The notes beneath the pieces are model-generated. The model was given only the letters and a program-made list of their open reading frames with translations, made no database searches and was not told the DNA's origin. 64,000 nucleotides of DNA from Trypanosoma brucei (Eukaryota): contig CP000067.1 in NCBI GenBank assembly GCA_000002445.1, positions 992,001-1,056,000 of the forward strand. Reading direction: 5' to 3'. Below, in pieces: positions 48,745-56,525 of this stretch (position 1 is its first letter; each line of letters starts with the position of its first letter). The position numbers and the translations under genes were made by a program.

Positions 48745-51123
48745 TTACTCACCCAAATCGAACTCTTTCAGCCGCTCATCAACCAATTCTGAAGCGACAC
48801 ATTCCGTCGGTCGTCGCGAATTGCGTATCTGATACTCCGTGGCCACATCTTTTAGCATCCCCTTCACACTAAAGGTCGGCATGTTTTGAAATACCTTACA
48901 ACTCTTATGAATAACCTTAAATTCCACCTGTATTCCATTACCTGCGTAAGTGTCCAGTAGCAAACCAATCACATATGGCTTGGAGGTGTTCACATCATGG
49001 ATGCGCGGAATCACAAAATAAGGACCGCCTTCTGGTTCAAATGTATACTGCAGTGCTACACTGCGGGAGAAGTTGAATTTCAGCTGGCGGCCGGGGATCT
49101 CCACATCCACATCACTTGCACATTCCATCTTTTCGTACTTGCCGCTGTGTCGGGAAACACTGACGAGTAGCGCTGCATATTGGACCTGTTGCTGCTTGGC
49201 GGACTGCTGACTTCCATCTGCTGTGTTGCACTCTTCCTCTTGTGAAAGAACAATATATGCAGCCACCGGATCGCTCACATTAATTTCTAAGCACACCGTT
49301 GGGTACCCGTCCACAAAGTTTCCTCGAATTCGGTAGTCATACCAATTGTTCCTCACATGACAAACGCCACCACCAGCAAAGACGTTGAGGGCGTCACTCC
49401 ACTGCAACCAAAACATGTTGTCGTCTTTTGGGGACTCCATGCCGCTTGGAAAACATGCACTTTGCACCGAGGGATATTCTTCCCACAGCTTGTCGCTCTT
49501 GCTCCACCTTCCTTTCCATTCCTCGCCAGTGCTCCATGGGTTGCGAACCTGTAGGAGGAATAAACCCATTTCTTCAAAGCATTTCACCTGCAACACGCTG
49601 TATCCGGAGTGCGCCTGCAGCCCCAATTCCTTACATGTAACTCGTGGCTTTCGCGCTTCTGTAGTTGGAGAGGTATCGCTTGGTTGTGCGGCTTTTAAGG
49701 CAGCGGGAGGCGGTGTGTAAAGCACCGTAATGTAGCCCCTTTTGTTATACATGACAAGGCGTTTGAAAAGTTTATCGTCCCCGTTTACCGCACTTTCCCA
49801 GTCTGTGTCGAAACGTGTGATTGGGAAGCCAGTGAGATCTTGAAGAGGGTCCAGTGGATCCCCACTCGCGATGTTGGAGTACGAATGATGGATTTTTGCA
49901 TACGCCTTTTCCAGCAACGCAACCCACAACCGCCGAAAGTCCACAGCACAATGTGCGTACTCGGGGCCTTCACGGTATGCAGGCAAGTAATCATCAATAA
50001 CTGTAGGACGCCACCAGCCGCCGCAATTCAATGTCACCCAGTAAGCCCCAACTCTGCGCTCCGCCTTCCCAACAGAAGGGGAAACCGGATGCCGGAATAA
50101 ATCTCGGATCTTGTCAGGCATTTCCGCAAGGCACGCAACAGCAGATGTGAAGTAACTGTCCCCCAACTCGCCTTGTGTTACATGCGAGGGCGCAATACTG
50201 CGGCGAAAGAGTCGGACCTCATCCAATTGACTCTTTGGGATGTAATCGCATGGTCGACGCCACGGAAGGCTCTGAAGGTTGTGCACATCGACATCAGGTC
50301 TGGAAAGAGAACGATCGCAAGGCCGGAAGCTGCAGTCGATGTATGGCACTTGATTTGCTGTGCAGTGCTCCAGCAGCTGCTCCTCCTCCAGTTTATCCGC
50401 GGATGGAAGATGAAGTTCCTCCGCAAGTTGCTCTAACTCGGATTGTATTTTACCATTCATAGGTCCATAGAATTCGGCACGCTTCCTATTGGATAGTGCT
50501 ACTGCTTTCGCCATGCATTTGAAGCCGTTCACTTTGCCCTCGATGAGCTTTCTCGTCTCTCCCGGGTACACAGTGAGGGAGGCTTCGATTTCTTTGTTAC
50601 TTTTAGCAAATATTTCAACTCCGTCACCTGGCTGCAGTTCTGACTTTGCTCCAAAGCGGAAACGAACCCGCATTTCATACTTTTCTGTATCGTTGTAGAA
50701 GTGCCATGCATCGTTGCTGGTGATTATCTTGTATAGCATACCGTGCTCAAACACGTTCGAAACCTTTCCCTCGACTGAGGGGCCCCGCAATAAATACGAC
50801 CCCGGCTTTTTCAACTGTGAGAGAAACTCCACCGTTGTGTTGATTGTCGCGTCTTCGAATTCGTCGCATTCATCATCATTCACATATGGTGGTGACAACT
50901 CCACGCGGGGGGCGACATATTTCCTTCCGCTTTCCGCATCCTGACGCATCTTTCGCATGCGCTCAATATCCTCAAAACTTCGTGGCAGCAAATCTGGTAG
51001 CGGAGTGGTTACCCTAACGATACGCATTTCGTCATCTTCCACGTTAAACTCCGGTAGAGTCACCGCTACGGTTCTTAACGCAGAGGTGTTACCGTTCGCC
51101 AGAAGACCACCGCTGCTCGTCAT
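48745..51123 (-). CDS. Calpain-like cysteine peptidase family protein (predicted non-catalytic), 792 aa
   Basis: Calpain domain II/III blocks are present. The active-site region reads QGELGDSYFTSAVACLA, with Ser where the catalytic Cys should be. The His-region reads AHSGYSVLQV, with no His. Confidence 0.85.
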   Translation of the reverse strand: MTSSGGLLANGNTSALRTVAVTLPEFNVEDDEMRIVRVTTPLPDLLPRSFEDIERMRKMRQDAESGRKYVAPRVELSPPYVNDDECDEFEDATINTTVEFLSQLKKPGSYLLRGPSVEGKVSNVFEHGMLYKIITSNDAWHFYNDTEKYEMRVRFRFGAKSELQPGDGVEIFAKSNKEIEASLTVYPGETRKLIEGKVNGFKCMAKAVALSNRKRAEFYGPMNGKIQSELEQLAEELHLPSADKLEEEQLLEHCTANQVPYIDCSFRPCDRSLSRPDVDVHNLQSLPWRRPCDYIPKSQLDEVRLFRRSIAPSHVTQGELGDSYFTSAVACLAEMPDKIRDLFRHPVSPSVGKAERRVGAYWVTLNCGGWWRPTVIDDYLPAYREGPEYAHCAVDFRRLWVALLEKAYAKIHHSYSNIASGDPLDPLQDLTGFPITRFDTDWESAVNGDDKLFKRLVMYNKRGYITVLYTPPPAALKAAQPSDTSPTTEARKPRVTCKELGLQAHSGYSVLQVKCFEEMGLFLLQVRNPWSTGEEWKGRWSKSDKLWEEYPSVQSACFPSGMESPKDDNMFWLQWSDALNVFAGGGVCHVRNNWYDYRIRGNFVDGYPTVCLEINVSDPVAAYIVLSQEEECNTADGSQQSAKQQQVQYAALLVSVSRHSGKYEKMECASDVDVEIPGRQLKFNFSRSVALQYTFEPEGGPYFVIPRIHDVNTSKPYVIGLLLDTYAGNGIQVEFKVIHKSCKVFQNMPTFSVKGMLKDVATEYQIRNSRRPTECVASELVDERLKEFDLGE

Positions 51124-56525: not shown

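What the first reader, a model, noticed from the sequence alone, without database searches (positions are those of the whole stretch)
48745..56525. Two neighbouring calpain-like genes both lack the catalytic Cys and His; one carries an MGCGGS dual-acylation N-terminus (CAP5.5-like)
Both ORFs carry the calpain protease-core blocks. At the nucleophile position, 48745-51123 reads GDSYF and 53964-56525 reads GDSWF, where the canonical motif is GDCWF. The His positions are also substituted (GYSV and GYSYAL). The 853-aa protein starts MGCGGSK, an N-myristoylation plus palmitoylation signal that fits the membrane-skeleton protein CAP5.5 of T. brucei. Its C-terminus is a highly acidic, Glu/Pro-rich tail. 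A 2.8-kb spacer separates the two paralogues.
Basis: partly seen in the sequence, partly recalled or inferred. Interest (0 to 1): 0.5.

Follow-up and report, generated by a model that had tools for sequence, protein, structure and literature searches.

The report
Trypanosoma brucei CAP5.5 and neighbouring calpain-like gene
These are two already annotated Trypanosoma brucei genes, the well-studied lipid-anchored cytoskeleton protein CAP5.5 and its calpain-like neighbour, and both are known to have lost the residues a calpain protease needs to cut, so the finding is correct but ordinary.

Summary
It re-describes known biology.

**Identity.** Both ORFs are exact, full-length matches to annotated T. 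brucei brucei TREU927 proteins on a 1.59-Mb contig. The 853-aa ORF is XP_844545.1, CAP5.5 (Tb927.4.3950). The 792-aa ORF is XP_844544.1, "calpain-like cysteine peptidase, putative".

**Architecture.** Both carry a DUF1935/SMP-1-like domain, a calpain core (Pfam E about 2e-47) and, modelled for the 792-aa protein only, a calpain domain-III-like beta-sandwich. Neither has EF-hands.

**Catalytic columns** (animal calpains read C/H/N):
- CAP5.5 reads S274/Y437/N459. This is the published "SYN".
- The neighbour reads S323/S506/N528.

The neighbour has a His (H505) immediately before the His column. It sits on the canonical Gly and is kept in 24 of 25 orthologues. No orthologue has the Cys.

**Other CAP5.5 features.** MGCGGSK fits the N-myristoylation pattern, and all 20 CAP5.5-family sequences start MGC. 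Myristoylation plus palmitoylation of CAP5.5 is published. The acidic tail (net charge -43 over 153 aa) and the 2840-nt spacer are confirmed.

**Locus history.** The tandem arrangement is ancient and syntenic with T. cruzi. T. cruzi and L. donovani have a third calpain gene immediately upstream of the neighbour's orthologue. T. brucei has only spacer at that position.

Novelty: already known.

The parts
53964..56525 (-). CAP5.5 coding sequence (853 aa plus stop), Tb927.4.3950
   Evidence: ORF. Exact match to XP_844545.1 'cytoskeleton-associated protein CAP5.5' of T. brucei TREU927. Gene ID from PMC2443814.
56505..56525 (-). MGCGGSK: N-terminal dual-acylation motif (Gly2 for myristate, Cys3 for palmitate)
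   Evidence: Fits PROSITE PS00008 applied at Gly2. MGC starts 20 of 20 CAP5.5-family sequences. Acylation shown experimentally according to PMC4181241 and PMC8625193.
56421..56504 (-). Proline-rich region of CAP5.5 (aa 8-35)
   Evidence: Sequence VKPQPPQAAAPPPPKPPTPPPKSPSVPS. 25% Pro over aa 1-65. Listed as a published feature in PMC13317235.
56028..56330 (-). CAP5.5 DUF1935 / domain I-K (SMP-1-like beta-sandwich), aa 66-166
   Evidence: Pfam PF09149 E 4.4e-27. PDB 2fe0 SMP-1 E 1.2e-13.
54990..55889 (-). CAP5.5 calpain protease-core-like domain, aa 213-512. Triad columns: S274 (55704-55706), Y437 (55215-55217), N459 (55149-55151)
   Evidence: Pfam PF00648 E 2.4e-47. Alignment to calpain-5 6p3q. 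Family alignment. Coordinates checked.
53967..54425 (-). CAP5.5 acidic C-terminal tail, aa 701-853
   Evidence: 22% Glu, 8.5% Asp, 9.8% Pro, net charge -43. Has no counterpart in the 792-aa protein.
51124..53963 (-). Intergenic spacer, 2840 nt. Presumed to hold the CAP5.5 3'UTR, the polyadenylation and trans-splicing region, and the 5'UTR of the downstream gene
   Evidence: GC 36.7%, with polypyrimidine tracts on the coding strand at 52272-52903. No ATG-initiated minus-strand ORF of 50 aa or more lies wholly inside it. No Rfam or tRNA hit. No relic of the third calpain gene found at this position in T. cruzi and upstream of the orthologue in L. donovani. The UTR assignment is inference.
48745..51123 (-). 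Calpain-like gene (792 aa plus stop). Gene ID Tb927.4.3940 is inferred from the adjacent accession and the matching product name
   Evidence: ORF. Exact match to XP_844544.1 'calpain-like cysteine peptidase, putative' on the same 1.59-Mb contig. Product name of Tb927.4.3940 in PMC3957582.
50497..50796 (-). 792-aa protein DUF1935 / domain I-K, aa 110-209
   Evidence: Pfam PF09149 E 1.4e-28. Modelled as a beta-sandwich at aa 120-209. Foldseek match to SMP-1 2fe0, E 1.8e-9.
49360..50343 (-). 792-aa protein calpain core-like domain, aa 261-588. Triad columns: S323 (50155-50157), S506 (49606-49608), N528 (49540-49542). Conserved His505 at 49609-49611
   Evidence: Pfam PF00648 E 2.3e-47. Alignments. 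Coordinates checked.
48784..49341 (-). 792-aa protein C-terminal beta-sandwich, calpain domain III-like, aa 595-780
   Evidence: AlphaFold2 model, pLDDT mostly above 90 in this region. Full-length m-calpain chains align over 540-565 columns, against about 350 for core-only chains. No Pfam Calpain_III hit at E<=0.01.

Best explanation
The region holds two adjacent, co-oriented genes of a Trypanosoma brucei polycistronic unit on chromosome 4. They are CAP5.5 (Tb927.4.3950, 853 aa) and the calpain-like gene directly downstream of it (792 aa, XP_844544.1, inferred to be Tb927.4.3940). Both belong to the kinetoplastid 'group 1' calpain-like proteins: an SMP-1-like domain I-K (DUF1935), a calpain core fold and domain III-like beta-sandwich(es), with no EF-hands.

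Neither can act as a cysteine protease. The nucleophile Cys is Ser in both. The general-base His is Tyr in CAP5.5 and Ser in the neighbour. Only the Asn remains.

CAP5.5 works as a structural protein. It is N-myristoylated on Gly2 and palmitoylated on Cys3, which anchors it to the inner face of the plasma membrane. The rest of the protein associates with the subpellicular microtubule corset. This membrane-to-microtubule link is needed for morphogenesis and cytokinesis in procyclic forms. Its chromosome-8 paralogue CAP5.5V does the same job in bloodstream forms. These steps are shown experimentally in the literature, not here.

The neighbour has no acylation signal. By inference, it is a soluble or otherwise-tethered non-proteolytic scaffold or binding protein that uses the conserved calpain cleft for binding rather than cleavage.
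For: Identity: both proteins match TREU927 proteins on one 1,590,432-bp contig exactly, with adjacent accessions. The consecutive deposits AAG48626 and AAG48627 fall in the same clusters.

Domains: Pfam, PDB sequence hits to calpains 1, 2, 3, 5, 8 and 9 and to SMP-1, the model with pLDDT 82 and pTM 0.83, and Foldseek to m-calpain at E 4e-23 over 541 columns.

Triad: S/Y/N and S/S/N, against C/H/N in 5 of 5 animal or other canonical calpains.

Ser at this position is an engineered substitution in a solved structure. The best PDB sequence hit of both proteins is the engineered calpain-3 C129S core mutant, 6bdt.

Conservation: 0 of 20 CAP5.5-family sequences have His at the His column, and 0 of 25 sequences in the neighbour's family have Cys at the nucleophile column. 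The 792-aa protein is nevertheless 54% identical to its Leishmania orthologue. That points to long-term purifying selection on a non-catalytic protein.

Acylation: the PS00008 fit, and MGC in 20 of 20 CAP5.5-family sequences.

Literature: 'SYN' instead of CHN, and myristoylated plus palmitoylated (PMC4181241). Links microtubules to the plasma membrane, and depletion is lethal (PMC8625193). Up-regulated in procyclics (PMC2443814). 'Whole cortex' localisation (PMC9981465 supplement). Palmitoylation of the T. cruzi orthologue (PMC13317235).
Against: Nothing contradicts the identification.

Absence of proteolysis is inferred from sequence, plus the reported lack of any detected activity (PMC7912814). 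It is not proved by a direct assay of these two proteins that I could read.

The same review notes that triad substitutions do not always abolish activity.

For the 792-aa protein I found no localisation or knock-down data. It is not in the held TrypTag supplement text, so its scaffold role is inference.

Its conserved His505, and the T/H/N state of most non-Trypanosoma orthologues, leave some room for residual chemistry.
Confidence: 0.93

Rival explanations
1. The 792-aa protein, or its family, is a still-active hydrolase that uses Ser323 (Thr in Leishmaniinae) as the nucleophile and the conserved His505 (His-His in most orthologues) as general base, with Asn528. That would be a serine/threonine-type calpain.
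For: His at position -1 is kept in 24 of 25 orthologues. The canonical His column is still His in 17 of 25, and Asn is kept in 25 of 25. One pairwise alignment puts His505 on the catalytic His. The motifs around the site (G321, R527, W530, NPW) are invariant or nearly so. A review notes that triad substitutions do not always abolish activity (PMC7912814).
Against: C-to-S versions of calpains are made as engineered mutants for crystallography (6bdt, titled 'Mutant-C129S'). The canonical His column drifts from H to C to S within Trypanosoma, which is not expected for an essential general base. No calpain-type activity has been reported for T. brucei calpain-like proteins (PMC7912814). The gapless family alignment puts His505 on the canonical Gly.
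Confidence: 0.05
2. One or both ORFs are decaying pseudogenes, and the triad substitutions simply reflect loss of function and relaxed constraint.
For: Catalytic residues are lost. The Cys column of the CAP5.5 family is highly variable: S, N, H, T, K, C.
Against: Both ORFs are intact over about 800 codons. Orthologues are conserved across trypanosomatids at 36-64% identity, with the full domain architecture. The model is confident. CAP5.5 is expressed and localised, and its depletion is lethal (PMC8625193; PMC9981465).
Confidence: 0.01
3. The two genes are a recent local tandem duplication, with one copy neofunctionalised by gaining the acylation signal and the acidic tail.
For: They are adjacent, co-oriented and share the same domain order.
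Against: They share only 32% identity. Each has separate orthologues in T. cruzi, Leishmania, Phytomonas and others. The same gene order, CAP5.5 then calpain(s) then orthologue then amino-acid transporters, is found in T. cruzi. The duplication therefore predates the trypanosomatid radiation. The recent duplication in this story is chr 4 versus chr 8, giving CAP5.5 and CAP5.5V at 76% identity (PMC2212663).
Confidence: 0.01

Closest known systems
CAP5.5 / TbCALP4.1 (Tb927.4.3950) of Trypanosoma brucei (Hertz-Fowler, Ersfeld & Gull 2001)
   Same: Identical sequence: 853 aa, an exact match to XP_844545.1. It has the MGCGGS dual-acylation N-terminus, the Pro-rich region, the calpain-like core with SYN in place of CHN, and the acidic tail.
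   Different: Nothing. It is the same gene.
CAP5.5V / CALP8.1 (Tb927.8.8330), the bloodstream-form paralogue on chromosome 8
   Same: 76% identical over 94% of CAP5.5. Same MGCGGSK start and the same S/Y/N triad. It is a product of the chr 4/8 duplicon (PMC2212663).
   Different: It is 888 aa, at a different locus, and is expressed in bloodstream rather than procyclic forms (literature). One search returned no equally close second T. brucei copy of the 792-aa neighbour. The chr 8 locus itself could not be fetched.
Kinetoplastid group 1 calpain-like proteins (Ersfeld et al. 2005)
   Same: Domain I-K (DUF1935), then the domain II calpain core, then domain III/IV without EF-hands. Catalytic residues are frequently altered (PMC4181241). 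Both window proteins fit.
   Different: None for family membership. The 792-aa member has received little individual study. Its triad state (S/S/N, with a conserved His at -1) is tabulated here across 25 orthologues.
Classical animal calpains (CAPN1, 2, 3, 5, 8, 9; MEROPS family C2)
   Same: The protease-core fold (TM-score normalised to the target, about 0.75-0.8), the domain III-like beta-sandwich and the conserved Asn/NPW motif.
   Different: No catalytic Cys or His, no penta-EF-hand domain and no small subunit. They have a kinetoplastid-specific N-terminal domain. Core identity is only about 17-26%.
SMP-1 small myristoylated protein of Leishmania (PDB 2fe0), and SH4-type MGC dual-acylation signals
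   Same: The DUF1935 fold matches SMP-1. The CAP5.5 N-terminus has the same Gly2/Cys3 acylation logic. That comparison rests on general knowledge of Src-family and G-alpha N-termini.
   Different: SMP-1 consists of the small domain alone and is targeted to the flagellar membrane. CAP5.5 is cortical and excluded from the flagellum (PMC4181241).

Membership tests
Calpain (Peptidase_C2 / CysPc) superfamily | CysPc protease-core fold and sequence signature | tested here: met
   PF00648 at E 2.3e-47 and 2.4e-47, well above the gathering score. Foldseek to calpain cores at E about 1e-19 to 1e-23, target-normalised TM about 0.8 (792-aa protein only).
Catalytically competent calpain (cysteine protease) | Nucleophile Cys in the G-D-C-W/Y-F/L motif | tested here: not met
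   Ser274 (GDSWF) and Ser323 (GDSYF). No alignment gives a Cys at this column.
Catalytically competent calpain (cysteine protease) | General-base His in the G-H-A-Y motif | tested here: not met
   Tyr437 in CAP5.5. Ser506 in the 792-aa protein by the gapless family alignment. His505 at -1 aligns to the His in only one gapped pairwise alignment.
Catalytically competent calpain (cysteine protease) | Asn of the triad (R-N-P-W) | tested here: met
   N459 (FNPWE) and N528 (RNPWS).
Classical calpain | C-terminal penta-EF-hand Ca2+-binding domain | tested here: not met
   No EF-hand family among the Pfam hits at E<=0.01. The C-terminal part of the 792-aa model is all-beta.
Kinetoplastid group 1 calpain-like proteins (Ersfeld 2005) | N-terminal kinetoplastid-specific domain I-K (DUF1935) followed by the calpain core and domain III-like region | tested here: met
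   PF09149 plus PF00648 in both proteins. SMP-1 match. Domain III-like sandwich in the 792-aa model. The homologous region of CAP5.5 aligns to it. Group definition taken from PMC4181241.
CAP5.5 (Tb927.4.3950) | Sequence identity with the described protein | tested here: met
   Exact full-length match to XP_844545.1/AAZ10986.1. AAG48626.1 CAP5.5 (853 aa) is in the same 90% cluster.
CAP5.5 (Tb927.4.3950) | N-terminal myristoylation/palmitoylation motif | tested here: met
   MGCGGSK fits PS00008 at Gly2 and has Cys3. Conserved in 20 of 20 family sequences.
CAP5.5 (Tb927.4.3950) | Actual lipid modification, association with the subpellicular cytoskeleton, procyclic-specific expression | not testable with these tools
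   Taken from the literature: PMC4181241, PMC8625193, PMC2443814, PMC9981465 supplement.

The most novel reading that the evidence does not exclude
The 792-aa family has never had a Cys nucleophile in any sampled trypanosomatid. It nevertheless keeps an almost invariant extra His next to the catalytic-His column (24 of 25), Thr or Ser at the nucleophile column, and the Asn (25 of 25). It is also far better conserved than CAP5.5 (54% against 36% identity to Leishmania). This could mark a re-wired active site, either a Ser/Thr-His hydrolase or a specific ligand- or substrate-trapping cleft, rather than a dead one. The third calpain gene present in T. cruzi and L. donovani, and absent from the T. 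brucei spacer, may point to functional redundancy within this cluster.
Probability: 0.05. Interest if true: 0.5.

Novelty: already known. Interest (0 to 1): 0.08.

Why it matters
As a discovery it matters little. CAP5.5, its SYN 'triad', its dual acylation, its Pro-rich and acidic regions, and the general loss of catalytic residues in kinetoplastid calpain-like proteins have been in the literature since 2001-2005. Both genes are annotated in the reference genome.

The value of this check is to close the finding as correct and ordinary.

There is a small residual point of interest. The much less studied neighbour belongs to a deeply conserved pseudo-calpain lineage with a conserved extra His beside a drifting catalytic-His column. 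That lineage would be a reasonable candidate for anyone studying how dead-protease folds are re-used.

Tried and rejected
1. First PDB query of the core used the wrong frame. It was repeated correctly.
2. The first MAFFT run timed out. It was repeated with fast settings.
3. I tested whether the 2.8-kb spacer hides a relic of the third calpain gene that lies between CAP5.5 and the orthologue in T. cruzi and upstream of the orthologue in L. donovani. tblastn gave nothing better than E=2.3 inside 51124-53963, so that idea is rejected.
4. I tested whether the characterised T. cruzi TcCALPx11 (XP_816697.1) is the orthologue of the 792-aa gene. That accession is not among the 15 members of the orthologue cluster, so the link is not made.
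5. I tried to fetch the chromosome-8 CAP5.5V locus, to see whether the neighbour was co-duplicated. The protein is not on record in the contig index.
6. I looked for TrypTag localisation of Tb927.4.3940. It is absent from the held supplement text, and only Tb927.4.3950 ('Whole cortex') was found.
7. Ersfeld 2005 and Hertz-Fowler 2001 are not held. Their content is cited only through reviews.
8. Rfam and tRNA scans of the whole window returned nothing.
9. Model coordinates are not exposed, so I could not measure whether His505 or Ser506 faces Ser323.
10. A second structure job, for CAP5.5, was judged unnecessary.
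Full report
**What is in the sequence.** The ORF at 53964-56525 encodes 853 aa beginning MGCGGSK. The ORF at 48745-51123 encodes 792 aa beginning MTSSGG. All 17 ORFs of 180 aa or more in the window are on the minus strand, as expected for a trypanosomatid polycistronic unit. Each of the two proteins scores Pfam Peptidase_C2 (calpain) at E about 2e-47 and DUF1935 at E 1e-27 to 1e-28. Each also hits the solved cores of calpains 1, 2, 3, 5, 8 and 9 and Leishmania SMP-1 in the PDB. 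The features are therefore real and far beyond chance.

**Identity.** An exact-sequence look-up finds both proteins in the public collection.
- The 853-aa protein is XP_844545.1/AAZ10986.1, 'cytoskeleton-associated protein CAP5.5, putative', of T. brucei brucei TREU927. It lies on a 1,590,432-bp contig.
- The 792-aa protein is XP_844544.1/AAZ10985.1, 'calpain-like cysteine peptidase, putative', on the same contig.
- The same 90% clusters contain the deposits AAG48626.1 (CAP5.5, 853 aa) and AAG48627.1 ('calpain-like protein', 784 aa). Their accession numbers are consecutive.

CAP5.5 is Tb927.4.3950 (PMC2443814). Tb927.4.3940 carries the product name of the neighbour (PMC3957582). Assigning the 792-aa ORF to that ID is an inference from the adjacent accession and the matching name.

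CAP5.5 has a 76%-identical, 888-aa paralogue on a 2.48-Mb TREU927 contig. This corresponds to Tb927.8.8330/CAP5.5V, pair 71 of the chromosome 4/8 duplicon (PMC2212663).

**Catalytic columns.** I aligned the two window proteins with 75 database sequences, including five animal or other canonical calpains that all read C/H/N.
- CAP5.5 reads S274/Y437/N459.
- The neighbour reads S323/S506/N528.

Pairwise HMMER alignments agree on the nucleophile. GDSWF and GDSYF align to GDCWF of wild-type calpain-3 (6bjd) and to GNCWF of calpain-5. The best-scoring PDB sequence for both proteins is 6bdt, the engineered calpain-3 core 'Mutant-C129S'. It carries the same GDSWF.

The segment is GLQAHSGYSV, against the canonical GLxxGHAYSV. 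Without gaps, Ser506 falls in the His column and His505 falls on the canonical Gly. The alignment to mu-calpain 1kxr instead opens a one-residue gap and pairs His505 with the catalytic His. The orthologue family resolves this. Most members read GL-R-L-H-H-G-Y, which aligns without gaps to the canonical motif.

Across the 25 sequences of the 792-aa family:

| Column | States |
|---|---|
| Nucleophile (Cys) | Thr 16, Ser 9, never Cys |
| Catalytic His | His 17, Cys 5 (T. cruzi clade), Ser 3 (T. brucei, T. congolense, T. vivax) |
| Position -1 of the His | His 24, Leu 1 |
| Asn | Asn 25 |

Across the 20 sequences of the CAP5.5 family:

| Column | States |
|---|---|
| Nucleophile (Cys) | variable: S, N, H, T, K, C |
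| Catalytic His | never His; Tyr in 17 of 20 |
| Asn | Asn 20 |

It is not met.

**Other claims.**
- MGCGGSK fits the PROSITE N-myristoylation pattern anchored at Gly2, and the 792-aa protein does not.
- All 20 CAP5.5-family sequences start MGC, and none of the 25 in the neighbour's family starts MG.
- The CAP5.5 tail (aa 701-853) is 22% Glu, 8.5% Asp and 9.8% Pro, with net charge -43. The really Pro-rich part is N-terminal, with 25% Pro over aa 1-65.
- The spacer is 2840 nt at 36.7% GC. It has polypyrimidine tracts on the coding strand at 52272-52903, no ATG-initiated minus-strand ORF of 50 aa or more lying wholly inside it, and no Rfam or tRNA hit. It most likely consists of the CAP5.5 3'UTR, the processing region and the 5'UTR of the next gene. 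That assignment is inference.

**Anatomy of the less-studied neighbour.** An AlphaFold2 model built on 31 orthologues is confident, with mean pLDDT 82.4 and pTM 0.83. It has these parts:
- a disordered N-terminus (aa 1-47);
- a beta-sandwich at aa 120-209;
- a long helix at aa 212-236;
- the calpain core at aa 247-590;
- a second beta-sandwich at aa 595-780.

Foldseek against the PDB aligns full-length m-calpain (3bow_A, E 4e-23) over 541 columns, while core-only chains align over about 350 columns. The C-terminal sandwich therefore corresponds to calpain domain III. The N-terminal sandwich matches SMP-1 (2fe0, E 1.8e-9). No EF-hand domain is present. The two window proteins are 32% identical over 661 residues, spanning all three domains.

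**History of the locus.** The 792-aa protein is better conserved than CAP5.5.

| Protein | Identity to T. cruzi orthologue | Identity to Leishmania orthologue |
|---|---|---|
| 792-aa protein | 64% | 54% |
| CAP5.5 | 48% | 36% |

In T. cruzi the gene order is as follows:
1. an 806-aa gene starting MGCCASK, which is the CAP5.5 orthologue;
2. a 1231-aa calpain-like gene;
3. the 774-aa orthologue of the neighbour;
4. two further genes;
5. amino-acid transporters.

In L. donovani a 1495-aa calpain-like gene, and another calpain-like gene beyond it, precede the orthologue. In T. brucei the 2.8-kb spacer occupies the position of that middle gene, and tblastn finds no relic of it there. An Aa_trans gene follows at 46210-47571. 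The tandem pair is therefore an ancient duplication that predates the trypanosomatid radiation. It is not a recent local one.

**What is already known.**
- The review PMC4181241, citing Hertz-Fowler et al. [quoted passage not shown] - PMC8625193 summarises the accepted model. [quoted passage not shown] Depletion of CAP5.5 or CAP5.5V is lethal, with aberrant cytokinesis and disorganised microtubules.
- TrypTag data list Tb927.4.3950 as 'Whole cortex'.
- A 2026 paper lists the dual-acylation motif, triad positions, Pro-rich region, calpain-like domain and acidic tail as published features. It also shows palmitoylation of the T. cruzi orthologue (PMC13317235).
- According to the review, Ersfeld et al. 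2005 defined the group 1 architecture and noted that catalytic residues are frequently altered, so most members probably lack proteolytic activity (PMC4181241).
- No proteolytic activity has been reported for T. brucei calpain-like proteins (PMC7912814).

**Mechanism.** For CAP5.5 the mechanism is supported by experiment in the literature. Co-translational myristoylation of Gly2 and palmitoylation of Cys3 give stable insertion into the inner leaflet. The calpain-like body and/or the tails bind the microtubule corset. The protein acts as a stage-specific membrane-cytoskeleton linker, not as an enzyme. For the neighbour, the best-supported reading is a non-proteolytic, non-acylated calpain-fold scaffold or binding protein under strong purifying selection. 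This is inference. I found no localisation or knock-down data for it.

The main rival is residual Ser/Thr-His chemistry using the conserved extra His. I rate it at about 5%, because the canonical His column drifts within Trypanosoma and Cys-to-Ser calpains are made as engineered mutants. I could not check the geometry, because model coordinates are not exposed.

**Verdict.** The finding is already known, and interest is low.

Noticed in passing
window 15267-29293 (-): Three tandem ORFs of 1232, 1232 and 1234 aa, spaced 5161 nt apart. The first and third were scanned and are receptor-type adenylate cyclases, with periplasmic-binding-protein-like domains plus a cyclase domain. Copies 1 and 2 are 93.8% identical without gaps. 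The low ungapped figure for copy 3 (about 13%) probably reflects an indel shifting the register, not divergence, but this was not aligned properly.
   Followed up: partly
window 51124-53963 compared with L002:5330-9025 and L001:4703-9190: T. cruzi has an extra large calpain-like gene (1231 aa) between the CAP5.5 orthologue and the orthologue of the 792-aa gene, and L. donovani has one (1495 aa) directly upstream of its orthologue. T. brucei has only a 2.8-kb AT-rich spacer there, with no detectable relic.
   Followed up: yes
window 49609-49611 (-), His505 of the 792-aa protein: A His immediately before the catalytic-His column is conserved in 24 of 25 orthologues. The canonical column itself drifts from His (Leishmaniinae and others) to Cys (T. 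cruzi clade) to Ser (African trypanosomes). Its role is unknown.
   Followed up: partly
window 57445-58098 (-): A 217-aa ORF directly upstream of CAP5.5 in the direction of transcription. It has no Pfam hit but carries a Walker-A-like motif, GSRSCGKT, near the N-terminus. It may be a small P-loop protein.
   Followed up: no
window 58100-62470: About 4.4 kb with no ORF of 180 aa or more. GC is unusually low (33-34%) with positive AT skew, and there are A-rich simple repeats: ATAA x12 at 59224, AATA x8 at 61218, and A/C-rich 22-25-nt repeats at 61520 and 62392. This is a long intergenic region, and it has no Rfam hit.
   Followed up: no
window 1461-47571 (-): Other genes of the unit by Pfam: an RNA polymerase second-largest-subunit (Rpb2-domain) homologue (2756-6328), an RsmB/NOL1-type RNA methyltransferase (10060-11799), a DEAD/DEAH helicase (31046-34327), a kinesin (38060-40423), a CRAL/TRIO plus DUF7353 protein (41815-45054) and an amino-acid transporter (46210-47571). 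ORFs of 465 and 459 aa at 7703-9100 and 12733-14112 were not scanned.
   Followed up: partly
window 53834-53881: A 16-nt imperfect tandem repeat, CCTTTATCTTTCTTTT x3 on the plus strand, which is purine-rich on the coding strand. It lies 83-130 nt downstream of the CAP5.5 stop codon, inside the presumed 3'UTR of this procyclic-specific mRNA. It was not tested as a regulatory element.
   Followed up: no
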